A stretch of 64,000 bases of DNA from an uncultured Actinomycetes bacterium (GCA_902826025.1 CADEDH010000020.1:5012-69011), one strand, 5' to 3'. Shown: positions 26,944 through 36,738, counted from the first letter of the stretch. Notes: generated from the letters alone by a model not told the origin. Translations and numbers: made by a program.

Positions 26944-26983
26944 CGGCCCGGGACCGAACCGGCACGTCAGGTCCACCATCCCC

Positions 26984-27010
26984 GTGACTGTCACACCCTT
27001 CGGTCATGAT
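26984..27010 (+). promoter_or_regulatory. Promoter with GTGACTGTCACA element (TGTCAC-N10-CATGAT)
   Basis: Palindrome 26984-26994; -10 CATGAT 27005-27010; ATG 27018 lies 7 nt later. The identical 12-mer occurs upstream of addB. Confidence 0.65.
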
Positions 27011-27017
27011 CTCCCCC

Positions 27018-27857
27018 ATGGCTGAGCTGCCCCCACATCTGTCTCCCTCGTCGGCCAGCCTGTTCGACCAGTGCCCTCGGCGCTGGCGGTTCAAGTACGT
27101 CGACCGGCAGCCCGAGCCGTCGGGCCAGGCCGCCCTGGTGGGATCGTTCGCCCACAGGGTGCTGGAGCTGACCTGCGGGCTGCCGGCCGCCTATCGCACC
27201 CTCGACCAGGCCAAGGCGCTGGCCAAACAGCTGTGGCCCGAGGTCGAGGCCGACCCCGACTACCAGGCGCTGGAGCTGGGCGAGGAGGCCGCCCGGGCCT
27301 TCCGGTGGCAGGGGTGGCTGGCCATCACCGGGCTGTGGGCCCTGGAAGACCCGGCCCAGGTCGATGTGGTGTCCACCGAGCAGAAGGTGAAGGCGTCGCT
27401 GGCCGGCGTGCCCTTCGTCGGTGTGATCGACCGGGTGGACCGCCAAGGCGACCATCTGGTCGTCAGCGACTACAAGTCGGGCTCGCTGCCCGGCGCCCGG
27501 TACCGCCAGGGGCGGCTGCAGCAGGTGATGCTGTACGCCGCCGCCCTGGCCGCCACCGGCACCGAGCAGCCCCACCGGGCCCGGCTGTTGTACCTGGGCC
27601 AGCGCATCCTCAACGTGGCCGTCACCGAACGGCGGATGGAGGAGGCGGCCGGCCAGCTCGCCACCACGTGGAACGCCGTCACCTCGGCCTGCGTTGGCGA
27701 AACGTTCGCCGCCAAACCTGGCGTGCTGTGCGGCTGGTGTCCCTTCGTCGACCAGTGCCCCGAAGGCCGGCGCGAGCTGGAGCGGCGGGCCGAAGCCGGC
27801 ACGCTACCGGCCCACGCCCCGGCCGCCGCCACCGTCCTCGCCGCCACTGCCGCCTGA
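27018..27857 (+). CDS. Stand-alone RecB-family / Cas4-like PD-(D/E)XK exonuclease with probable 4Fe-4S cluster
   Basis: LSPSS..QCPRRW, GSFAH, GVIDRVD, SDYKSG, QxxxY, CGWCPFVDQC. Confidence 0.88.
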   Translation: MAELPPHLSPSSASLFDQCPRRWRFKYVDRQPEPSGQAALVGSFAHRVLELTCGLPAAYRTLDQAKALAKQLWPEVEADPDYQALELGEEAARAFRWQGWLAITGLWALEDPAQVDVVSTEQKVKASLAGVPFVGVIDRVDRQGDHLVVSDYKSGSLPGARYRQGRLQQVMLYAAALAATGTEQPHRARLLYLGQRILNVAVTERRMEEAAGQLATTWNAVTSACVGETFAAKPGVLCGWCPFVDQCPEGRRELERRAEAGTLPAHAPAAATVLAATAA

Positions 27858-27865
27858 GCGCTTTT

Positions 27866-27922
27866 GGCCAAACTTTGTCACCTTGTGCCGCCTCTGGCGG
27901 CATTAAGTGACAAAGTTCGGCC
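27866..27922. terminator. Long AT-rich inverted repeat between convergent genes (putative bidirectional terminator)
   Basis: GGCC-a-AACTTTGTCAC-cttg-TGCCGCC-tct-GGCGGCA-ttaa-GTGACAAAGTT-c-GGCC; 27-nt arms with a few mismatches. Confidence 0.6.
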
Positions 27923-27953
27923 GGTTTGGGGGCCGTTCGGGCCGGGGGCGGGG

Positions 27954-28700
27954 CTACAGCAGAGAGGCGAAGAGGGCTTCGCCGTCGATGGGGTGGCCCT
28001 TCTGGGTGAACCACTGGGCCACGTTGGTCACGTCACGGTGGAGGAAGTTGAGCCCCTGGGGGTTGGCGGCCAGGTCCAGGGCCTGGGGGAAGTCGATGAA
28101 CCACAGCTCCCCCTCCCACCACAGCAGGTTGTAGGCCGACAGGTCACCGTGAACCCAGCCCTCCCCCACCATCAGGGCCAGCCCGGCCTCCAACTGGTGG
28201 GCGGCGTCGGCCAGCTCTCGGGGGCCGAGCTGGGCCCGGGCCAGCTGGGGGGCCGCCCCGTCGGGGTCGCCCACGTACTGGAGGACGAACGTGTCCTCGG
28301 TGTACGACACGGGATAGGGCACCCGCAGCCCGGTCTCCCACAGGGCGGACATCACCCGGTGCTCGTGGCCGGTCCACCGGTCCTGCATCAGGCGGCGGCC
28401 GTAGGCCGACATGCGCTCCACGGCCCGGCGGTCGCGCGTCTTGCGGAACTGGCGGCCCTCCCGGTACTGGACATCGTGACGGAAGGCGGAGGCCCGCTCG
28501 ATACCGAGCGACTCCAGCTCCCCCTTGGCCGACACGGTGCGGGGCACGTAGCGCTTCTGGACCAGCAGGCAGGAGCTGCCGTCGGCGCCGGTGCGGCGGA
28601 TGAGATCGATCTGGGCCTCCTTGCCCGGGCGGAGGAGGCCGAGGGGCTCGTCGAGGAACGGTTCAGGGACCAGCCAGGCCGGCTGGTTGACGGTGGACAT
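27954..28700 (-). CDS. RIO1 family kinase/ATPase
   Basis: RPGKEA, VQKRY, F-R-x-x-x-Y-R-E-G-R, VPYP, HGDLSAYNLL, IDFPQ. Confidence 0.9.
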   Translation of the reverse strand: MSTVNQPAWLVPEPFLDEPLGLLRPGKEAQIDLIRRTGADGSSCLLVQKRYVPRTVSAKGELESLGIERASAFRHDVQYREGRQFRKTRDRRAVERMSAYGRRLMQDRWTGHEHRVMSALWETGLRVPYPVSYTEDTFVLQYVGDPDGAAPQLARAQLGPRELADAAHQLEAGLALMVGEGWVHGDLSAYNLLWWEGELWFIDFPQALDLAANPQGLNFLHRDVTNVAQWFTQKGHPIDGEALFASLL

Positions 28701-28838
28701 GACAGGGTGACTCCGGCGTTCGCTACAGACAACGGGAGCGGCCAAACGGGCCGCGGACCCGGTCGCTCGCCGGCTTCAGGGCAGCGCACCGCTCCAGCTA
28801 CGGGGAACCCGTGCGAGCGGCCAACCGCGAGCCGGCGG

Positions 28839-28892
28839 TCAGGCCCCTTCGGAGGCGCGACCGGGGATGGCCTGGACAACAGCTGCAGTCAT
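28839..28892 (-). CDS. Putative leader peptide MTAAVVQAIPGRASEGA (17 aa) upstream of the RIO1 kinase
   Basis: ATG 28892, TGA 28841-28839, GGAGGT SD 9 nt upstream, in an otherwise unassigned intergenic gap. Confidence 0.4.
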   Translation of the reverse strand: MTAAVVQAIPGRASEGA

Positions 28893-28973
28893 GGAACGCA
28901 CACCTCCCCTTCCCCGGTGACGGGGCTCGATCCGCTCACCCTACGCCCCGTACCCCGCCCGGTCATCTGAATT

Positions 28974-31900
28974 TCAGCCGCCACCCACCAGATCGGCCAC
29001 GGCGGCAACGGCGGCGGGTAGATCGTCGACCTCGCGCTCGACGGCCTCGCCGTCGGTGCGCAGGAACAGGAACCGGCAGCCCGCCACCGGGCGGCCGGTC
29101 ACCTCCTGGAGGGCCAGGGCGTAGGCTGCGCCCTGCCACCGGTGGTGGGCCATCTGACGGTCGATCTCGGCTTCGGGCACCCGGTCGGTCTTGTAGTCAA
29201 CCACCACCAGGCCCCCGTCGTCGGTCTCGTAGCACAGGTCGATGAAGCCCTCGAGCAGGGCGTCGCCCACCGGGGCGGCCACGTACAGCTCGCGCCACAG
29301 CCGGGGGGCGGCCGCCGCCTCGGCGATGGCCGGCGCGGTGAGGGCCGACGCCGCCAGGGTGGCCACCTCCCGGGCGTGGTCGGGCACGCCGGCCTGGGCC
29401 GCCGCCCGGGCCGCCAGCGGAACCAGCTCGGCCGCGGTGGCGGTGAGCGCCGCCTGCTCCAACGTGGCGTGGACGGCGGTGCCGATGGCGGTCGACGCCC
29501 GACGGGCCGCCGGGGCGACCTCGTCGCCGCTCTCGGCCAACTCGTCCACCACCTCCGCCCCGGCCCCCGCCGGGCTTCCATGCGCCATCTGGTGCCCGGG
29601 GGCGTCACCGGTGACGGCGGGGGATACCAGATGGGGAGCCAGCGTCTCGGCCACCCGGGTGGCCGACCAGGTGGCGGCCCGGCGGTTGCCGTCGAGCAAT
29701 CGGTCCTGCTCCTCGGCCCACACCCGGCTGGTCTCGCCCCACGAGCCGGCCGACAACCGGAGCTGGGTGGGGGGCTCCACCCGGTAGCGCTCGTCGCCCC
29801 GGCGCTCGAACGGCCGCCACAGCTCCTCACACCCCTGAATGGCGGCCCAGGTGCGCTGACCGCTGCTCTGCAGCCCCTCCCGGTGATGGGCCGACAGGAC
29901 CAGCAGGTCGCGGGCGCGGGTGGTGGCCACGTAGTGGAGCCGCACCCGCTCGTGGCGATCGAGCACCTCCTCCACCGAGGCGTGCACGTCGAACCCGGCG
30001 GTGGTGCGGTCTTTGCCCACCTTCACCTCGGGCGGCCGTCCCGGGGGGAACAGCACCTGAGGCCCGGCACCCCGGTTGGCGTCCCGCGTCGGGGCCCCGG
30101 CCACCACCACCATGGGGAACTCGAGGCCTTTTGAGCCGTGGATGGTGAGCACCCGTACGGCATCGTCGTCGGGCTCGGCCGGGATGGGTTCGGTGACCCG
30201 GGCCAGGTCGCTCGACTGGACCTCCACCCAGGCCACGAAGTCGAGCAGGTCGCCGCCCCGGGTGGCGGTGAACTCCCGGGCCTGCTCGGCCAGGAACCGG
30301 TAGCGGCGCCACCGGTCTCGGGGCCGGGGCTCGGCCAGGGCCGCCTCCCGCAGGCGCCGCTCCCGCACGATCCGCTCGATCACCGCCGAGGGCTCCATCC
30401 ACCACCGATCGAGGTGCCAGCGGGCCAGTTCGGCCAGGGCGGCGACCACCGGGTGGTCGGCAGGGGCGGCCGGGGGCGGTGGTTGGAGATAGTCGAACGA
30501 GCCCCCGACCAGGTGCCACGACAGCAGCTCGTCGTCACCCAGGGCGAACAGGCCCGAGCGGAGGGCGGCCACCACGTCGATGGCGCTGCCCGGGTCGACC
30601 ACGGCCCGCACCCCGGCCAGCACGTCGCGCACCTCCTGGGTGGCGTAGACGAGGGAGCTGGTCTCGGGCCGGAAGGGGATGTTGGCCGCGCCGAACGCCG
30701 CCTCCAGGGCCGGCAGTGACAGGCGGGAGGGGATGAGCACGGCGATGTCCTGCAACCGAACCGGCCGCCACGAGCCTTCGCGCTCGCACCGCCAGCCCTC
30801 GTCCATGGCCCGGCAGATCACGGCGGCCACGTCGGCCGCCTCCAGCTCCCGGATCTCACCCACCGGGACGGTGCGGGGATGGGGGCCCCCGATCACCAGC
30901 ACCGGTGCCCCCGGCGCCTCGGGGTCGGGGCTGCGGACGGCGCCCAGCGGCGTGTAGCGGGGCTGGGCCCCAGGCTCGCCCTCGCCGATGAGCTGGCCGA
31001 ACAGGGCGTTGACCAGCTCCACCACGCCGGGCACGGACCGGAAGTTGGTGGTGAGCCGCAACGGCTCGCTGACCAGGGCCTCCTCGGCCTCGGCGTAGAC
31101 GGCCATGTCGGCCCGGCGGAACCGGTAGATGGACTGCTTGGGGTCGCCCACCACCACCAGGCGCCCCGGGCTGAGGGTGGCGGCCAGCTCGGGCCAGGCC
31201 TTCGTGCCCACGAGGCCGTCGGCCCCGATGAGCACGGCCAGCTCGATCTGGATGGGATCGGTGTCCTGGAACTCGTCGAGCAGGATCCGGCTGTAGCGCT
31301 GGTGGAGGTCTTCCCGCACCAGGGCGTTGCGCCGCAGGAGCTGGCGGGCCAGCACCAGCAGATCGTGGAAGGCCAGCTCGCCCCGCTGCTGGCGGTCCTC
31401 CACCCGGCCCCGCACGAACCCGGCCACCCGTTCCACCAGCTCGCCGATCACCTCATGGCGCCAGCGGGCCACGTCAGCCGCCACCGACTCCTGGGCCTCG
31501 GCCACCTGGCGTCGCACCTCGTCGACGTCGAGGCGGACCCAGCTGGCCTTGCGCCCAACGTTGCGGCGGGGCCACTTAACCTGGTCGAGCCAGCGGAGCT
31601 GGGTGATGGCGTCTCGTCCGAGGGCGATGGTGGCCTCGTCGGCCAGCGCGGTGAGCCCCACCGCCAGGTGATCGGAGGCGTCGAGGCAGTGCCCGACCAG
31701 CGATCCCAGGGCCACGATCCGCTGTACCACCGGCGCCGGCTCCAGCGGGGACAGACCGGGGGCGGGGGCCAGGTTGTCGAGCAGGTCCCAGTTGTCGTCG
31801 AAGCGGCGGGCCACGTCGGCGAAGTGGCGCAGCTCCACCCCCAGGGCGGCCGCCCGCTCCAGTAGGTCGAGCAGGCTGAGGTCGTCGCCCAGCTGGGCGG

Positions 31901-32345
31901 CGAAGGTTCGCCAGGCGTCCTGGAACTCGAGCAGGGAGCCGATCTCGTCGGCCACGGCGAACCCCGGCGGCAGGCCGGCCTCCACCGGATGATCGGCCAG
32001 GATGCGCAGGGCGAAGCCGTGCAGGGTGGTGAACGCCGCGCTCTCCACCTGGCCGGCGGCGTTGAGCAGCTGCCGGTCGTTGCGGTCGGCCCCTTGGCGC
32101 TCCAGCTCGTCCCGCACCCGGGTGCGCAGCTCCCGGGCCGCCGCCTCGGTGAACGTGATGGCCGCGATCCGGCCGACCGGGGCCCCGTTGGCCACCAGGT
32201 TGACGATCCGCTCCACCAGCGAGCTGGTCTTGCCGCTGCCCGCGCCGGCCTCCACGAACAGGGTGTCGCTGAGCGAGGCCCGCACCCGGCGCCGGGCCTC
32301 GGCATCCTCCAGGGGCACGGCGCCCCGTTCCGAGGTGAGCGTCAC
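28974..32345 (-). CDS. addA: AddA-type UvrD helicase-nuclease
   Basis: AGAGSGKT, AITFT, TTLHGF, LDEFQDT, VGDPKQSIYRFR, TIHGSKGLEF, YVATTRARD, C-terminal GFIDL...VDYKT; GTGA overlap with addB. Confidence 0.88.
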   Translation of the reverse strand: MTLTSERGAVPLEDAEARRRVRASLSDTLFVEAGAGSGKTSSLVERIVNLVANGAPVGRIAAITFTEAAARELRTRVRDELERQGADRNDRQLLNAAGQVESAAFTTLHGFALRILADHPVEAGLPPGFAVADEIGSLLEFQDAWRTFAAQLGDDLSLLDLLERAAALGVELRHFADVARRFDDNWDLLDNLAPAPGLSPLEPAPVVQRIVALGSLVGHCLDASDHLAVGLTALADEATIALGRDAITQLRWLDQVKWPRRNVGRKASWVRLDVDEVRRQVAEAQESVAADVARWRHEVIGELVERVAGFVRGRVEDRQQRGELAFHDLLVLARQLLRRNALVREDLHQRYSRILLDEFQDTDPIQIELAVLIGADGLVGTKAWPELAATLSPGRLVVVGDPKQSIYRFRRADMAVYAEAEEALVSEPLRLTTNFRSVPGVVELVNALFGQLIGEGEPGAQPRYTPLGAVRSPDPEAPGAPVLVIGGPHPRTVPVGEIRELEAADVAAVICRAMDEGWRCEREGSWRPVRLQDIAVLIPSRLSLPALEAAFGAANIPFRPETSSLVYATQEVRDVLAGVRAVVDPGSAIDVVAALRSGLFALGDDELLSWHLVGGSFDYLQPPPPAAPADHPVVAALAELARWHLDRWWMEPSAVIERIVRERRLREAALAEPRPRDRWRRYRFLAEQAREFTATRGGDLLDFVAWVEVQSSDLARVTEPIPAEPDDDAVRVLTIHGSKGLEFPMVVVAGAPTRDANRGAGPQVLFPPGRPPEVKVGKDRTTAGFDVHASVEEVLDRHERVRLHYVATTRARDLLVLSAHHREGLQSSGQRTWAAIQGCEELWRPFERRGDERYRVEPPTQLRLSAGSWGETSRVWAEEQDRLLDGNRRAATWSATRVAETLAPHLVSPAVTGDAPGHQMAHGSPAGAGAEVVDELAESGDEVAPAARRASTAIGTAVHATLEQAALTATAAELVPLAARAAAQAGVPDHAREVATLAASALTAPAIAEAAAAPRLWRELYVAAPVGDALLEGFIDLCYETDDGGLVVVDYKTDRVPEAEIDRQMAHHRWQGAAYALALQEVTGRPVAGCRFLFLRTDGEAVEREVDDLPAAVAAVADLVGGG

Positions 32346-35326
32346 TGCCGGTCTTCTTTCGGTCGCAGCAGGATCTCCACCGGGGCCAGCGCCGGGTCGG
32401 GGCGGACGTTGTCCCACTCCCGTTGGCGGTCGGTGGGGCAGATCTTGTCGAAGTCGCAGTACCGGCAGTGCTCGTAGCTGACCCGGGGCCAGCCGATGGC
32501 GTCCCCCGGTACGCCGGGGAACAAGCCGCCCGAGATCCCGTCGAGGGCCGCCCCCACCATCGTGAGCAGCTCGGTCTCCAGCTCATCCTCCAGCTCGATG
32601 GGCCGCAGGTCGGCCTTGGCGGTGAGCCAGTAGAGCGCCGTGCGGGGGCCGTCGTAACCGAGCTTCTCGGCCACCACCCGGGCGTAGAGCGGGAGCTGGA
32701 GACGGCGGCCGCCCTTCAGCGGGTCGTCTTTGATGCCGTCGAAGGCCCGGCCCGAGCCGCCCTTGTAGTCGATGACGAGGAGCCCGCCGTCTTCGGTGGC
32801 GTCGACCCGGTCGACCCGGCCCCGCAGGCGCAGGGTGCGGCCGTCGGGCAGGGTGAGCACCGTGTGGTCGTCGTCGAAGCCGAAGGCCAGCTCCACATGC
32901 GACGGGGTGGACCGCCGGTCGGCCCGCATGGCGTTGTCGGTGGCCAGGAACTGCTCCATCTCCACCCGCAGGCGCCGCTCCAGGATGATCGTGCTCACCC
33001 GGCCGCCGGTGAGGCCCCGACCCTGCGCCCCGGCCAGCTCTTCCACCAGGACCCCCAGCAGGTGGGCCCGCCGGTCGGCCGACCACGGCTCTCCTGGGGC
33101 CGGCACCTCGCCCGACACGATCGACTCGGCGATGAAGCGCTCCAGCACGGCGTGGGTGAGGTTGCCCCGGTCCAGCGGGGTGATCTCGTCGATCCGCTCG
33201 GGACGCTCGTCGTCGGCCAGGCGCAGCACCCGCTCGAACAGGTAGCGGCGGGGGCAGCCGGCGTAGGTCTCCAGCGCCGTGGCCGACAGCAGCCATTCGG
33301 TGGCGTCGATGGCGCCGGCCGGAACCCGGCCCACGTGGGGATTCAGGTCTCCCCGGCGCCGGTTCAGGTTGCGGGTGAGGTTGCGGGACAGGACGGGATC
33401 GAGGTGGGCCAGCTCGTGGGTGTTGACCGGATCTCCCCCGTCGACGTGGCCGATCAGGTCTCGGAGGCCGGCGTCGGCGGCCGACGCCGGGCGGCCGTGA
33501 TCGACCAGGCCCCGCCGGTGCGACTCGAGCACGTTGCGGGCGGCCACCAGCGGGTTGAGCACCCGGGGCCAGGAGCGGGAGCGGATGCTGCGCATGTCGC
33601 CCCGGGCCGTGAGCAGCAGGGGGGCCTGACGGGTACCGGCCAGCACGGCGGCCACGGCCCGGACGTCGAGCTCGCCCACCGCCTCGGTGGGGGCCAGCAG
33701 GCCCCGGGCCTCGGCCCGCAACCGGTCGGGCAGGAGGGAGTCTTCCCGGGGTGTGCGGGGGAACGACCCCTCGGCCAGGCCCACCACGGCCACCCGCTCG
33801 AAGGCCAGCCCGGCGGCCGAGTTGACCGGGGCCACCAGCAACCCGGTGCCCAGCGGCCGGCCCTGCATCCGGCGCTGATCCAGCTGGGCCGACACCATGG
33901 AGGCGAACCCGGACAGGCCGGGGCGGGGCTGCAGGGGTTCGAGTCGGGTGAGCTGGGTGAGCAGATCCACCACCGCCGCCCGGGCCGTGCGCTCCTCCAC
34001 CGGCCAGGCCCCGGCCCGCTCCGGGGGCAGGTAGCGGTCGAGCAGAGCCCGGGCCCACGCCCCCCACGCCTCCCAGGTGACCGGCTCGGGATGGGGCCAG
34101 AGCCGGTCGCTCAACTCGGCCACGAAGGTGGCCAGGCCCCGGACCAGCCCGGCCTCGGGCTCGGCGGTGTGGGCCGCCATCTCCTCCAGCCGGGGCAACC
34201 AGTGGGCGTGCTCCACGATCCCGGCCCGGCGCGACAGCCGGTCCCAGGCCGGGGCCGGCACCGGCGTGCCCTCGGCGGTGGTGACCGGACCGGAGGCCAG
34301 GAAGGCGGCCACGGCTGTGCGCTCCAACCCGTCGGCGGCCAACGCCAGCAGACGGCCCAGGAGGCGCCCGGCCAGCGACGACGACAGCGGGCGGTGCCCC
34401 GGCCCGCACCACGGCAGCCCGGCCCCCTCCAGGTGCTCGTGGAGGAGGCTGGCGTAGGGGTCGGCGGCGGTGTGGAGCACGGCCATGGCCGTGAGCGGCA
34501 CGCCGAGGGCGGCGTGGGCCACCAGATCACGCACCGCGGCCCGCACCTCGTCTTCGGGGTCGGCCACCTCCAGCACCACGGCCTGATCGGCCGCCCCCGC
34601 CGCCACACCCTCGATCTGGATGCCCCAGGCGGCCAGCCGGTCGAGGTGGCGCCGGTCGACCCCGGGCTCGCCGGTGACGCCCACCACCACCGTGCAGTCG
34701 GTGCGGCGGGCCAGGGCCGCTACCAGGCGGCCCTCGAAGGGCCGGGCCGGCTCGGGCAGGTGGAGCAGGATCGGACCCCGGGCCAGCGGGGGCATCGCCT
34801 CCAGCTCGGCCAGCGCCCGGTGCAGCAGCCGTTGGCGGATCTCGGCCCGGCCGGTGCGCCCGTTGGCCCCCCGGATCACCCGGATGGCGTCGTTGGCCAG
34901 GCCGGAGCCGGCGAGCTGCATCCGCTCCAGCACGTCGTCGTCGAGGCCGTCGAGCTGGCGGTGGAGGACGACCAGGCGCTCCTCGGTGGTGCGGTGGTCG
35001 GCCACCCGCCCGAACAGGCCGGGCTGGGCCGCCAGCTCGCCCCGGATGGCGGCCTGGATCTCCACCGGATCTCCGACGTGGCGGCCGTCGGCGGCCAGGC
35101 CAGGCCCGGCCAGGTCCTCGGCCAGCTGGTCGAGCGTGACCACGGCGACGTTGGCCACCCCACCGGCCCGGCGACCGAGCGCCCGGCGCACCCCCACCGC
35201 CACCAACGCCCCGGAGCACACCACCAGGGCGGGAGCCAGCGGGTCCGCTCCCCGGCGATCAGCCAGGATCCGGCCCAGCGTCTCGACCGCGGCCGAGCCG
35301 AACCCCGTGGTGGTGACGGTAGCCAT
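32342..35326 (-). CDS. addB: AddB-type inactive helicase with PD-(D/E)XK nuclease and Fe-S Cys motif
   Basis: SATALETYAGCPRRY, GRVDRVD, IDYKGG, LQLPLY, CRYCDFDKIC. Confidence 0.85.
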   Translation of the reverse strand: MATVTTTGFGSAAVETLGRILADRRGADPLAPALVVCSGALVAVGVRRALGRRAGGVANVAVVTLDQLAEDLAGPGLAADGRHVGDPVEIQAAIRGELAAQPGLFGRVADHRTTEERLVVLHRQLDGLDDDVLERMQLAGSGLANDAIRVIRGANGRTGRAEIRQRLLHRALAELEAMPPLARGPILLHLPEPARPFEGRLVAALARRTDCTVVVGVTGEPGVDRRHLDRLAAWGIQIEGVAAGAADQAVVLEVADPEDEVRAAVRDLVAHAALGVPLTAMAVLHTAADPYASLLHEHLEGAGLPWCGPGHRPLSSSLAGRLLGRLLALAADGLERTAVAAFLASGPVTTAEGTPVPAPAWDRLSRRAGIVEHAHWLPRLEEMAAHTAEPEAGLVRGLATFVAELSDRLWPHPEPVTWEAWGAWARALLDRYLPPERAGAWPVEERTARAAVVDLLTQLTRLEPLQPRPGLSGFASMVSAQLDQRRMQGRPLGTGLLVAPVNSAAGLAFERVAVVGLAEGSFPRTPREDSLLPDRLRAEARGLLAPTEAVGELDVRAVAAVLAGTRQAPLLLTARGDMRSIRSRSWPRVLNPLVAARNVLESHRRGLVDHGRPASAADAGLRDLIGHVDGGDPVNTHELAHLDPVLSRNLTRNLNRRRGDLNPHVGRVPAGAIDATEWLLSATALETYAGCPRRYLFERVLRLADDERPERIDEITPLDRGNLTHAVLERFIAESIVSGEVPAPGEPWSADRRAHLLGVLVEELAGAQGRGLTGGRVSTIILERRLRVEMEQFLATDNAMRADRRSTPSHVELAFGFDDDHTVLTLPDGRTLRLRGRVDRVDATEDGGLLVIDYKGGSGRAFDGIKDDPLKGGRRLQLPLYARVVAEKLGYDGPRTALYWLTAKADLRPIELEDELETELLTMVGAALDGISGGLFPGVPGDAIGWPRVSYEHCRYCDFDKICPTDRQREWDNVRPDPALAPVEILLRPKEDRQ

Positions 35327-35335
35327 CGCCCGTTC

Positions 35336-35364
35336 AGGCTACGGCGCCCCTGTGACAGTCACAG
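35336..35364 (-). promoter_or_regulatory. addBA promoter with GTGACTGTCACA element (TGTCAC-N10-TAGCCT)
   Basis: Perfect palindrome CTGTGAC-W-GTCACAG at 35350-35364; -10 TAGCCT 35341-35336; ATG 35326. Confidence 0.65.
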
Positions 35365-35391: not shown

Positions 35392-36738
35392 TCACTCCCA
35401 CAAACGGTCGACGACGTCGAGCCAGAGCTGGACGGTGAGGCGGAGCGACTCGATGTCGATGCGCTCGTCGTGGCCGTGGAAGCGGCGGAAGAACTCCTGG
35501 GTGTCGATGTCGGCGCTGAGCAGCCCGGCCCCGTAGGCCACAGCGCCCTTCTTACGGAAGAAGCGGGCGTCGGTGCCACCGGTGACGATGCTGGGCACGA
35601 TCTTGGCCTGGGGGTAGGCGGCCCGCATGGAGCCGGCCAGGGCGTCCCACAACCGGTTGTCGGTGGGCGAAGCGGTGGACGGATCCTCGTGGATGACCTC
35701 CAGCTCCACCCGGTCGAACAGCTCGCCGAGGGCGTTGCGCAGGTGCTGATTCACGTCGTCGCGGGTCTCGCCGGGCAGGGTGCGGATATCGACGTCGATG
35801 GCCACCTTGTCGGGGATCACGTTGGTCTTGACCCCGCCGTGCACCACGTTGGGGCTGAACGTGGTGTGGCTGCAGGCGTGGGCGTTCGCCGCCAGCTGGG
35901 GCGGCAGCTCGTGCAGGGCGTCGCGCAGGCGGCCCGGATCGAGCAGCTTGGCCGTGAGATCGTCGGGTAGGCCCATGGCCGCCACCCGGGCCGCCCACAG
36001 CTCGTCGAGCTGGGGGGCCGGGGCGTAGGCGCTGATCCGGCGCACCACCTCGGCCGCCGTGACCAGGGCGTTGTCGCTGCCCCAGGGCATCGAGCCGTGG
36101 CCCGGCGTCCCCTTGACCGTGAGGCGCCGCCAACCGATCCCCTTCTCGGCCGTGGTCACCAGGATGCTCGACCCCTTCGGGCTGTGGAGCGGGATGCCCC
36201 CGAACTCGGTGAGCACGTAGTCACACCTCAGCTCGTCCCAGTTGCTCGCCACCAGGGACTCGGCCCCCCACCGGCCGCCGGCCTCCTCGTCGGCCACGGC
36301 GAAGTAGACGACGTCGCCCGGCAGGCGGCGCCCGGTGGCCACCAGGTGGCGAAACACCGTGGTCATGGAGGCGGTGAGGTTCAACATGTCCACCGCCCCC
36401 CGACCCCAGATCTCGCCGTCGATCAGCTCCCCGCCGAACGGGTCGTGGGTCCAGCCGTCGGGCGACACCGGCACCACGTCGGTGTGGCCCATCAGGCACA
36501 GGGCCGGAGCGTCGGGGTCGGTGCCGGGCCAGCGGGCGATCAGCGAGCTGCGACCGGGCAGGATGTCGAACATCTGGAGGTCGACCCCGGTCCCCTCCAG
36601 CTCGTCGCGCAGGAGGCGGGCGCTGCGCTCCTCCTGGCCCGATTCCCGGGTGCCGTCGTTCACGCACTGGTTGCGGATGAGCGCCTGCAGCAGCTCCACC
36701 GTCTCGTTGGTCAGGGTGTCGGTGACGTCTCGGGCCAT
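35392..36738 (-). CDS. M20/M25/M40 family metallo-hydrolase
   Basis: GHTDVVP, WGRGAVDM, ADEE, GHGS, NVIP, GGTDARF, HGHDE. Confidence 0.9.
   Translation of the reverse strand: MARDVTDTLTNETVELLQALIRNQCVNDGTRESGQEERSARLLRDELEGTGVDLQMFDILPGRSSLIARWPGTDPDAPALCLMGHTDVVPVSPDGWTHDPFGGELIDGEIWGRGAVDMLNLTASMTTVFRHLVATGRRLPGDVVYFAVADEEAGGRWGAESLVASNWDELRCDYVLTEFGGIPLHSPKGSSILVTTAEKGIGWRRLTVKGTPGHGSMPWGSDNALVTAAEVVRRISAYAPAPQLDELWAARVAAMGLPDDLTAKLLDPGRLRDALHELPPQLAANAHACSHTTFSPNVVHGGVKTNVIPDKVAIDVDIRTLPGETRDDVNQHLRNALGELFDRVELEVIHEDPSTASPTDNRLWDALAGSMRAAYPQAKIVPSIVTGGTDARFFRKKGAVAYGAGLLSADIDTQEFFRRFHGHDERIDIESLRLTVQLWLDVVDRLWE

What the first reader, a model, noticed from the sequence alone, without database searches (positions are those of the whole stretch)
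26984..35364. Identical palindromic GTGACTGTCACA element at PafBC-like spacing in front of two DNA-repair nuclease transcription units
Seen: on the coding strand both the RecB-like nuclease (+, 26984-26995) and addB (-, 35362-35351) carry the same 12-mer GTGACTGTCACA followed by exactly 9 nt and a -10 box: TGTCAC-N10-CATGAT and TGTCAC-N10-TAGCCT. At addB the palindrome extends to CTGTGAC-W-GTCACAG with a further GTGACT repeat. I saw this 12-mer nowhere else in the window. Established: the mycobacterial LexA-independent DNA-damage promoter recognised by the WYL activator PafBC (RecA-NDp) is TGTCGG-N10-TANNNT and controls end-resection helicase-nucleases. Inference: this lineage uses the same -26 geometry but a fully palindromic TGTCAC site, suggesting a variant or homodimeric WYL-type activator (or an overlapping repressor) running an undescribed DNA-damage regulon that covers addBA, probably rio1 downstream, and the orphan Fe-S nuclease. 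No regulator gene is in this window.
Basis: partly seen in the sequence, partly recalled or inferred. Interest (0 to 1): 0.75.

Follow-up and report, generated by a model that had tools for sequence, protein, structure and literature searches.

The report
PafBC-type DNA-damage promoters, Acidimicrobiales form

Summary
GTGACTGTCACA-N9-(CATGAT|TAGCCT) lies directly upstream of a 279-aa Fe-S PD-(D/E)XK nuclease gene and of addB-addA. There are 2 exact copies in the window against 0.03 expected.

The PafBC-like geometry holds. The genome is a 6.9-Mb Acidimicrobiales MAG. It has 62 exact TGTCACA-N9-TANNNT sites, against 0-2 at any other spacing tested. These sites lie before recA, radA, uvrB, two lhr genes, ligA, rmuC, comM, dnaX and about 17 DUF222 (13E12-like) genes. 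In 41 of 94 matrix hits a start codon follows the -10 box by 6-8 nt, which indicates leaderless mRNAs. A canonical mpa-dop-prcBA-pafA-pafB-pafC locus is present, and PafB keeps the GTC-reading arginines.

The palindrome idea fails. The left arm GTGAC is not conserved in the regulon: 2.6 full matches are expected from the position frequencies and 3 are observed. It is also not conserved in 43 orthologous nuclease promoters or in addB promoters across the order.

This is therefore the known PafBC/RecA-NDp system, in which adnA is a textbook target. It appears here with a lineage consensus of TGTCACA in place of tGTCgg/TGTCRGTG. Across the phylum the two consensus types are largely mutually exclusive between families. 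Damage induction is inferred, not shown.

The parts
26989..26995 (+). -26 element TGTCACA of the nuclease promoter.
   Evidence: It matches the genome-wide consensus. GTCACA is conserved in most of 43 orthologous promoters.
27005..27010 (+). -10 hexamer CATGAT, 9 nt after TGTCACA.
   Evidence: Orthologs have cA(t/g)GAT at the same spacing.
27018..27857 (+). Gene for a 279-aa PD-(D/E)XK nuclease with a Cas4/AddB-type 4-Cys (Fe-S) pattern. The start codon ATG at 27018 lies 7 nt after the -10 box, so the mRNA is predicted to be leaderless. The in-frame ATG at 27006 lies inside the -10 box.
   Evidence: A 7-nt spacing to ATG is found in 23 of 35 aligned orthologs.
26976..26981 (+). CCATCC box at about -42 to -37. 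It is specific to this gene's promoter and is conserved in orthologs.
   Evidence: ATCC is present in 29-34 of 35 aligned orthologous promoters. The regulon matrix shows no conservation at these positions.
35351..35357 (-). -26 element TGTCACA of the addB-addA promoter. The 12-mer is 35362-35351, and an extra GTGACT repeat extends to 35368.
   Evidence: addB orthologs across the order carry TGTCACA-N9-TAnnnT with a variable left flank.
35336..35341 (-). -10 hexamer TAGCCT. The addB ATG (35326) follows after 9 nt, giving a predicted 5' UTR of 0-3 nt.
   Evidence: Orthologs have 7-9 nt between the -10 box and the start codon.
32342..35326 (-). addB-like subunit, 994 aa. It has a C-terminal PD-(D/E)XK nuclease domain with a 4-Cys Fe-S pattern and no Walker A motif.
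28974..32417 (-). addA-like subunit, 1147 aa. It has a UvrD-type helicase domain with Walker A at residue 57 and a PD-(D/E)XK nuclease domain. It overlaps the end of addB, so the two genes form one operon.
27954..28745 (-). RIO1-like kinase gene, 228 nt downstream of addA. Co-transcription is not resolved. The 368-aa ORF on the + strand (27864-28970) is its shadow.

Best explanation
Both sites are PafBC-dependent ('RecA-NDp', sigma-adaptation) promoters in the form used by Acidimicrobiales. The -26 element TGTCACA lies 9 nt upstream of a SigA-type -10 box (TAnnnT or cAnnAT). There is no -35 box. Transcription is predicted to start at, or 0-3 nt before, the start codon.

By analogy with the mycobacterial system, single-stranded DNA produced by damage activates the PafB/PafC heterodimer encoded on contig C4. 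PafB's helix-turn-helix reads the GTC core at about -27. The complex sits between the DNA and sigma region 4, and this lets the housekeeping RNA polymerase fire at these promoters, which lack a -35 box. The result is more AddAB helicase-nuclease and more of the small Fe-S nuclease, together with recA, radA, uvrB, lhr, ligA and the other targets.

That the two promoters share this variant, which makes the site look palindromic, is coincidence.

Shown here: the motif, its spacing, its genome-wide enrichment, the regulon content, its conservation in orthologs, the presence of pafBC, and the conserved DNA-reading residues. Inferred: that PafBC is the binding factor, that the promoters are damage-inducible, and where transcription starts.
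For: (1) Spacing is specific. TGTCACA-N9-TANNNT occurs 62 times in the genome. There are 0, 2, 0, 0 and 1 matches at N7, N8, N10, N11 and N12, and 0 for reversed or complemented cores. About a third of all 192 TGTCACA heptamers carry the -10 box at N9.
(2) An iterated weight matrix gives 94 sites with the consensus gTTCaCTGTCACAccccctgcgTAgggT.
(3) Downstream genes include recA (score 41), radA, uvrB, two lhr genes, ligA, rmuC, comM, dnaX, about 17 DUF222/13E12-like genes, and two glyoxalase/bleomycin-resistance proteins. In mycobacteria recA, uvrB, adnA/adnAB and lhr are PafBC-dependent (PMC5656591, PMC8682763, PMC8635444).
(4) In 41 of 94 sites an ORF start of at least 70 aa lies 6-8 nt after the -10 box, and 36 of these are ATG. 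At random positions the rate is 5.3% (binomial p = 2e-27).
(5) No -35/-10 sigma-70-type promoter and no LexA box is found at either site.
(6) Contig C4 carries mpa-dop-prcB-prcA-pafA-pafB-pafC. PafC has HTH_PafC, WYL and WCX domains. PafB aligns to M. smegmatis PafB of the cryo-EM complex 7P5X (E = 6e-32), with K5, R8, A43, R46, R50, K52 and R56 conserved.
(7) The site is conserved in orthologs. The nuclease promoters of 43 Acidimicrobiales loci, and the addB promoters across the order, keep (T)GTCACA-N9 and the -10 box close to the start codon.
(8) The published motif is tGTCgg(N10)tA(N3)T. Only the GTC triplet is strictly conserved across actinobacteria, and the motif is explicitly non-palindromic (PMC8635444, PMC6789036).
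Against: - There is no expression, TSS or binding data for this organism. It is an uncultured MAG from wastewater, and the listed RNA-labelled runs held at most 10% of the gene's sampled words.
- The bases after GTC are ACA, not gg or RGTG. They are far more constrained here (89-98%) than in mycobacteria, so recognition differs in detail.
- Five other WYL proteins are encoded, and any of them could in principle be the reader of the motif.
- Lower-scoring sites precede metabolic genes such as thiolases, amidohydrolases, TauD and a CoA-transferase. The regulon is therefore broader than DNA repair, or some matches are not functional.
- The nuclease -10 box is CATGAT, not TAnnnT.
Confidence: 0.85

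Rival explanations
1. The TGTCACA-N9-TAnnnT regulon is real, but a factor other than PafB/PafC reads it. Candidates are one of the five other WYL-domain regulators (possibly a homodimer) or an alternative sigma factor.
For: Seven WYL-domain ORFs are in the genome. The element differs from the mycobacterial consensus after GTC. PafB residue 47 is A/S in 6 of 11 genomes that use TGTCACA, against M in 9 of 10 genomes that use TGTCRGTG. This hints at altered recognition, but it is compatible with PafB itself having diverged.
Against: The pafB-pafC pair is intact in the Pup-proteasome locus, with conserved DNA-reading arginines. All 20 genomes tested, of either motif type, have a PafB ortholog. The geometry and the regulon content match the PafBC system. 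None of the WYL genes carries the motif. The -10 box is SigA-type, and the upstream element lies too close (10 nt) to be a sigma -35 contact.
Confidence: 0.08
2. At these two end-resection nuclease promoters, the palindrome GTGAC-T-GTCAC is an operator for a second, dimeric regulator (a repressor or co-activator) that overlaps the PafBC element.
For: The 12-mer is identical at two functionally related promoters 8 kb apart. At addB the dyad extends to 7+7 bp. The closest relatives (97-100% protein identity) keep it.
Against: The regulon's position frequencies predict 2.6 sites with a full GTGAC arm, and 3 are seen. The third precedes an unrelated 82-aa ORF. In 35 aligned orthologous nuclease promoters only positions -3 (A) and -1 (T) of the arm are conserved, and these are the regulon-wide consensus bases. 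addB orthologs have arms such as tagac, ggggc, aaccg and agcac. No divergent promoter is encoded on the opposite strand (read).
Confidence: 0.05
3. The match is a chance repeat with no promoter function.
For: None beyond the small size of the element.
Against: 0 of 100 shuffles give 2 copies. The spacing is strictly specific genome-wide. The element is conserved in orthologs and is coupled to start codons.
Confidence: 0.01

Closest known systems
PafBC-dependent (RecA-NDp / recA P1) promoters of Mycobacterium and other Actinomycetes, which work by 'sigma adaptation' (PMC8635444, PMC6789036, PMC8682763)
   Same: A bipartite element with a GTC core at about -27, exactly 10 nt between the hexamer and a SigA-type -10 box, and no -35 box. 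The motif is non-palindromic at regulon level. The targets are recA, uvrB, lhr and the AddAB/AdnAB-type end-resection enzyme. The regulator genes pafB-pafC lie downstream of pafA in the Pup-proteasome locus. PafB R46 and R50 are conserved.
   Different: The consensus is TGTCACA, with all seven positions at 88-99%, plus a weaker upstream T-x-A-C. The mycobacterial forms are tGTCgg and TGTCRGTG. The host is class Acidimicrobiia, not Actinomycetes. A very high share of targets is leaderless. The helicase-nuclease is AddAB-type (one motor, Fe-S AddB) and not the two-motor AdnAB. Nothing has been verified experimentally.
DriD and other homodimeric WYL activators (Caulobacter, Acinetobacter), which bind dyad-symmetric sites (PMC9186387, PMC10853764)
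   Same: WYL-domain, ssDNA-sensing activation of SOS-independent damage genes.
   Different: Those regulators need a conserved inverted repeat. Here the second half-site is not conserved in the regulon or in orthologs.
LexA/SOS boxes of Actinomycetota (GAAC-N4-GTTC type)
   Same: A palindromic operator upstream of DNA-repair genes.
   Different: No such box lies at either site. The sequence and the position relative to the -10 box are different.

Membership tests
PafBC-dependent (RecA-NDp) promoter | A -26 element containing the GTC triplet, separated by 10 nt from a tA(N3)T -10 box [tGTCgg(N10)tA(N3)T] | tested here: met
   The sites read TGTCAC-N10-TAGCCT (addB) and TGTCAC-N10-CATGAT (nuclease). 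The spacing is strict genome-wide: 62 sites at N9 after TGTCACA against 0-2 at other spacings. The nuclease -10 box has C instead of T at position 1.
PafBC-dependent (RecA-NDp) promoter | The bases following GTC are 'gg' or 'RGTG', which are the weakly conserved positions of the published motif | tested here: not met
   Here they are ACA, at 0.98, 0.96 and 0.89. TGTCGG-N10-TANNNT is not enriched: 6 sites against 7 and 3 at neighbouring spacings. The published motif marks these positions as at most 50% conserved, and only GTC is strict across actinobacteria (PMC8635444).
PafBC-dependent (RecA-NDp) promoter | No -35 consensus | tested here: met
   No sigma-70-type -35/-10 pair is found at either site. 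The regulon matrix shows only a weak TTCAC 15 nt from the -10 box.
PafBC-dependent (RecA-NDp) promoter | The motif is non-palindromic and is read by one HTH (that of PafB) | tested here: met
   The regulon consensus of the left flank is gTTCAC, not GTGAC. Full dyads occur at chance frequency.
PafBC-dependent (RecA-NDp) promoter | The genome encodes a PafB/PafC pair next to pafA, with the DNA-reading residues R46 and R50 | tested here: met
   L008 (contig C4) carries mpa-dop-prcBA-pafA-pafB-pafC. Alignment to chains AY and AX of 7P5X shows K5, R8, A43, R46, R50, K52 and R56 conserved.
PafBC-dependent (RecA-NDp) promoter | The regulon includes recA and other repair genes, among them the AdnAB-type enzyme | tested here: met
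   recA, radA, uvrB, lhr (two genes), ligA, rmuC, comM, dnaX, addBA and DUF222 genes.
PafBC-dependent (RecA-NDp) promoter | Induction by DNA damage that is RecA/LexA-independent, PafBC-dependent and triggered by ssDNA | not testable with these tools
   The organism is an uncultured MAG. No usable RNA data were found.
   (see the rival explanations).
AddAB helicase-nuclease | AddB has an inactive motor (no Walker A) and a nuclease domain stapled by a C...CX2CX5C Fe-S cluster. AddA has a UvrD-type motor and a RecB nuclease domain. | tested here: met

The most novel reading that the evidence does not exclude
The nuclease promoter may be composite. Besides the PafBC -26 element it carries a gene-specific CCATCC box at about -42 to -37 (window 26976-26981). 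This box is kept in about 30 of 35 aligned orthologous promoters across Acidimicrobiales but is absent from the rest of the regulon. It could be the site of a second, unknown regulator. It could also be a DNA contact of the PafC helix-turn-helix, which in mycobacteria touches only sigma region 4. Either way, this Fe-S nuclease would get control that the rest of the damage regulon lacks. Separately, TGTCACA and TGTCRGTG appear to be two largely exclusive specificity classes of the PafBC system across the phylum.
Probability: 0.25. Interest if true: 0.45.

Novelty: new member of a known kind. Interest (0 to 1): 0.3.

Why it matters
It extends the PafBC 'sigma adaptation' DNA-damage regulon to the deep-branching, mostly uncultured class Acidimicrobiia. 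PafBC work has so far been done in mycobacteria, and the actinobacterial comparison I read (PMC8635444) covers only Actinomycetes. It also gives a sharp, searchable promoter definition (TGTCACA-N9-TAnnnT, mostly leaderless) that corrects start codons and predicts damage-inducible genes in metagenome-assembled genomes. The split of the phylum into families that use TGTCACA and families that use TGTCRGTG offers a natural experiment on how PafB reads DNA beyond the GTC triplet. It does not reveal a new regulatory principle, and the palindrome that motivated the finding has no support.

Tried and rejected
- Palindrome as the functional unit: rejected. Left-arm frequencies in 94 sites (67 non-redundant) predict the observed number of full dyads. 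Orthologous promoters do not keep the arm.
- Divergent promoter on the other strand of the dyad: reading the reverse strand gives no -10 box at the right spacing.
- Canonical -35/-10 promoters, intrinsic terminators and LexA boxes at the sites: none found.
- Mycobacterial consensus in this genome: TGTCGG-N10-TANNNT is not enriched, and TGTCRGTG-N8-TANNNT has only 3 sites.
- RNA evidence for the TSS or for induction: the runs that hold the locus well are wastewater metagenomes (some of unlabelled type). The RNA-labelled runs hold at most 10% of the words. Read laying was not attempted.
- A PafB residue that explains ACA versus RGTG specificity: position 47 (A/S versus M) correlates only partly. 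Inconclusive.
- A hairpin or inverted repeat CCATCC...GGATGG spanning the nuclease promoter: significant in only 7 of 43 orthologs, from about three clades, and absent in the window. It was not pursued as a general feature.
- An autoregulated WYL gene carrying the motif: none of the 7 WYL ORFs has a site in front of it.
- Whether Rv2119, the M. tuberculosis relative of the small nuclease named in PMC2587704, is a documented RecA-NDp/PafBC target: I could not verify this in the searchable literature.


Full report
**Observation.** The 12-mer GTGACTGTCACA is at 26984-26995 (+) and 35362-35351 (-). It occurs nowhere else in the window. Dinucleotide shuffles give a mean of 0.03 copies, and none of 100 shuffles reaches two. 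Each copy is followed by 9 nt and a -10-like hexamer, CATGAT at 27005-27010 and TAGCCT at 35341-35336.

**Genes.**
- 27018-27857 (+) encodes a 279-aa PDDEXK_1 protein with a Cas4/AddB-type Cys pattern, C19...C238-X2-C-X5-C. Sources name its relatives 'RecB family exonuclease'.
- 35326-32342 (-) is AddB-like. It has a PD-(D/E)XK domain, no Walker A motif, and Cys 691/954/957/963.
- 32417-28974 (-) is AddA-like, with a UvrD motor and a nuclease domain.
- A RIO1-type kinase gene lies on the minus strand at 28745-27954. The longer plus-strand ORF 27864-28970 has no family match and is its shadow.
- Upstream of addB, an M20 peptidase gene ends at 35392.

**Organism.** The window lies in a 6.87-Mb assembly of 162 contigs with 70.8% GC. 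The nuclease gene is identical to that of an 'Acidimicrobiales bacterium' MAG. All close relatives are Acidimicrobiales or Acidimicrobiia MAGs. The DNA is found in wastewater metagenomes.

**The 12-mer belongs to a much larger motif family.**
- Scanning the genome showed many sites of the form (T/G)(C/G)ACTGTCACA-N9-TAnnnT.
- An iterated weight matrix converged on 94 sites with the consensus gTTCaCTGTCACAccccctgcgTAgggT. The informative positions are T-GTCACA (0.88-0.99 each) and T-A-n-n-n-T of the -10 box.
- Spacing is strict. TGTCACA-N9-TANNNT occurs 62 times. There are 0, 2, 0, 0 and 1 matches at N7, N8, N10, N11 and N12, and 0 for complemented or reversed cores. A third of all 192 TGTCACA heptamers in the genome carry the -10 box at N9.
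- In 41 of 94 sites the first ORF of at least 70 aa starts 6-8 nt after the -10 box, and 36 of these starts are ATG. At random positions the rate is 5.3% (p = 2e-27). The promoters therefore mostly drive leaderless mRNAs.
- This sets the nuclease start codon at ATG 27018, 7 nt after CATGAT, and not at the in-frame ATG 27006, which lies inside the -10 box.
- For addB the gap is 9 nt, giving a 5' UTR of 0-3 nt.

**Regulon content.** Genes directly downstream include the following:
- DNA metabolism: recA (one of the best-scoring sites), radA, uvrB, two lhr helicase genes, NAD-dependent ligA, rmuC, comM, dnaX and a comF-like gene.
- Other named families: DUF3375, an Uma2 nuclease, two glyoxalase/bleomycin-resistance proteins and AbiEi-like proteins.
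- Two paralog clusters, of 12 and 5 genes, whose tested members are DUF222-domain (mycobacterial '13E12'-type) proteins.
- A family of seven small proteins that share the motif PPLRGRALRFVL.
- Among lower-scoring sites, metabolic enzymes such as thiolases, amidohydrolases, TauD and a CoA-transferase.

**Regulator.** Seven WYL-domain ORFs exist in the genome. Two are adjacent on contig C4 and lie downstream of pafA in a canonical mpa-dop-prcB-prcA-pafA-pafB-pafC locus. PafC has HTH_PafC, WYL and WCX domains, and PafB has WYL and WCX domains. PafB aligns to M. smegmatis PafB of the RNAP-PafBC cryo-EM complex 7P5X (E = 6e-32), and PafC aligns to its PafC (E = 3e-33). The residues that the published structure identifies as contacting DNA are mostly identical: K5, R8, A43, R46, R50, K52 and R56. 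S40 is replaced by P and E42 by A (residue roles from PMC8635444). None of the WYL genes is itself preceded by the motif.

**What is known.**
- The PafBC motif is tGTCgg(N10)tA(N3)T.
- The 3' part is the SigA -10 box. The 5' part, the '-26 element' at -23 to -28, is read by the PafB helix-turn-helix through the GTC triplet. There is no -35 element.
- PafBC inserts between the DNA and sigma region 4, a mechanism called 'sigma adaptation'.
- The GTC triplet is the only part strictly conserved across the actinobacteria compared, all of which are Actinomycetes (PMC8635444).
- The motif is described as non-palindromic, which fits a heterodimer (PMC6789036).
- RecA-NDp promoters extend to other Actinobacteria (PMC8223512, PMC5087735).

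The two window sites fit this definition in geometry. Neither has a -35/-10 sigma-70-type promoter or a LexA box.

**The palindrome.**
- Relative to the G of GTCAC, the left flank in the regulon reads as follows. Position -6 is T 0.44 / G 0.31. Position -5 is T 0.63. Position -4 is C 0.57 / G 0.31. Position -3 is A 0.57 / G 0.35. Position -2 is C 0.82. Position -1 is T 0.89.
- The consensus is therefore TTCACT, not GTGACT. The two G's that make the dyad are minority bases.
- Multiplying the position frequencies predicts 2.6 sites with a full GTGAC arm among 94, or 2.3 among 67 non-redundant sites. Three are observed: the two window sites and one before an unrelated 82-aa ORF on contig C98.
- In 35 aligned orthologous nuclease promoters (protein identity about 60-98%) the arm is variable (gtcat, gtaat, ctgat, cagat, ccact and others). 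Only A at -3 and T at -1 are kept, and these are the regulon-wide consensus bases.
- addB orthologs from other families of the order have TGTCACA-N9-TAnnnT with flanks such as tagac, ggggc, aaccg, agcac and atggc.
- The palindrome is therefore confined to this species cluster and is what the degenerate flank produces by chance. It gives no reason to invoke a homodimeric activator or an overlapping repressor.

**Distribution across the phylum.** I scanned 101 Actinomycetota genomes for each consensus type. In the counts below the first number is TGTCACA-N9-TANNNT and the second is TGTCRGTG-N8-TANNNT.
- TGTCACA is enriched over its reversed control in this genome (62/3), in class-mates (31/0 and 12/1) and in several other families (for example f63: 8-21 against 0-2).
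- TGTCRGTG dominates in other families (f81: 2 against 38-57; f95: 0-4 against 17-20).
- The two forms are largely mutually exclusive between families.
- All 20 genomes tested, of both types, have a PafB ortholog.
- Aligning their HTH regions shows R46 and R50 invariant. Residue 47 is A/S in 6 of 11 genomes that use TGTCACA and M in 9 of 10 genomes that use TGTCRGTG. This is a partial correlation and not a clean determinant.
- I found no paper that combines Acidimicrobiia with PafBC or RecA-NDp. Several earlier notes of this scan reached the same reading on other Acidimicrobiia genomes. Those are leads, not independent evidence.

**Verdict.** It is the known system in a lineage-specific consensus. 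It is not a palindrome-reading variant and not an undescribed regulon. Damage inducibility, PafBC binding and the transcription starts are inferences. No RNA data usable for this organism were found. Whether rio1 belongs to the addBA transcript is open. A 228-nt gap follows addA, with no recognisable terminator, promoter or PafBC motif in it.

**A residual oddity.** The nuclease promoter carries a gene-specific CCATCC box about 8 nt upstream of the TGTCACA element (window 26976-26981). It is conserved in about 30 of 35 orthologs but is absent from the regulon matrix. In some clades it pairs with GGATGG in and after the -10 box, forming a 7-11 bp inverted repeat. This holds in only 7 of 43 loci at p < 0.05 and not in the window. 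Its meaning is unknown.

Noticed in passing
window 26976-26981 and orthologous loci L030-L073: A CCATCC box about 8 nt upstream of the -26 element of the nuclease promoter is conserved in about 30 of 35 aligned orthologs but not in other regulon promoters. In a few clades it forms a 7-11 bp inverted repeat with GGATGG(...) that overlaps the -10 box and the start region (for example GACGCCATCCA/TGGATGGCGTC in L046, and CGACCATCC/GGATGGTCG in L061, L062 and L065).
   Followed up: partly
G000 contigs C13:16328-16759, C6, C41, C5:11441-11917, C34, C21, C90 (hits 9, 17, 20, 28, 29, 35, 36): Seven paralogous small proteins (about 136-160 aa; one ORF of 283 aa is interrupted by N's), grouped by all-against-all BLASTP. 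The N-termini shown share the motif PPLRGRALRFVL(V/I)DELM. The two members tested have no Pfam match, and one of them no NCBIfam match either. All sit behind motif sites scoring 30-39 (the maximum is 43), and each is leaderless.
   Followed up: partly
G000 contigs C133, C159, C52, C39, C21, C62, C5, C88, C51, C15, C95, C6 and C73, C67, C9, C55, C23: About 17 genes in two paralog clusters, of which the four members tested carry DUF222 (mycobacterial 13E12-type). They hold most of the best-scoring promoters (up to 43 bits), and the promoter regions are nearly identical. The family looks like a mobile or expanding gene family wired to the damage regulon.
   Followed up: partly
G000:C30:2900-3460 (-), locus L025: A 187-aa leaderless ORF behind a strong TGTCACA element (score 33). 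Its -10 position reads GACACT, which is not TAnnnT. Its C-terminus matches the cell-division suppressor YneA only weakly (NCBIfam E = 0.004). It is a candidate damage-induced division inhibitor.
   Followed up: no
G000, lower-scoring sites, e.g. C1:78700-79971, C74:16864-18045, C77:24820-26526, C34:20380-21345, C1:190838-191980: Motif sites also precede thiolases, amidohydrolases, a TauD dioxygenase, a CoA-transferase, a luciferase-like monooxygenase and a citrate synthase-like gene. Several of these are exact TGTCACA-N9-TAnnnT matches. The regulon may be broader than DNA repair, or these matches may be non-functional.
   Followed up: no
window 42844-42823 (-): A third TGTCACA-N9-CAAGAT match in the window lies about 50 nt upstream of a 235-aa ORF (42769-42062). 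I did not run that ORF against the family libraries. The site falls below the matrix threshold, so it is a weak candidate promoter.
   Followed up: no
G000:C98:14201-14212, C35:~30367 and C26:26925-26936: Two other copies of the exact 12-mer exist. The C98 copy (…TGTCACAACCCATGTGTAGAAC) resembles a site on C35. Both precede only very short ORFs of 82-87 aa, so the product might be a small protein or an RNA. The C26 copy has no -10 box at the right spacing.
   Followed up: no
locus L032, upstream of its nuclease gene: In one Acidimicrobiales relative, a LexA-box-like CGAACgtatGTTCG lies about 25 nt upstream of the TGTCACA element. Some lineages may therefore combine SOS and PafBC-type control on this gene.
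   Followed up: no
window 27864-28970 (+) versus 27954-28745 (-): The longest ORF between the nuclease gene and addA is on the plus strand (368 aa). It has no family match. The real gene is the RIO1 kinase on the minus strand. This is a trap for ORF-length-based annotation in this 73% GC DNA.
   Followed up: yes
phylum-wide scans: Across 101 Actinomycetota genomes, TGTCACA-N9-TANNNT and TGTCRGTG-N8-TANNNT are enriched in largely non-overlapping sets of families. One genome (G146) has both types, 13 and 7 sites.
   Followed up: partly
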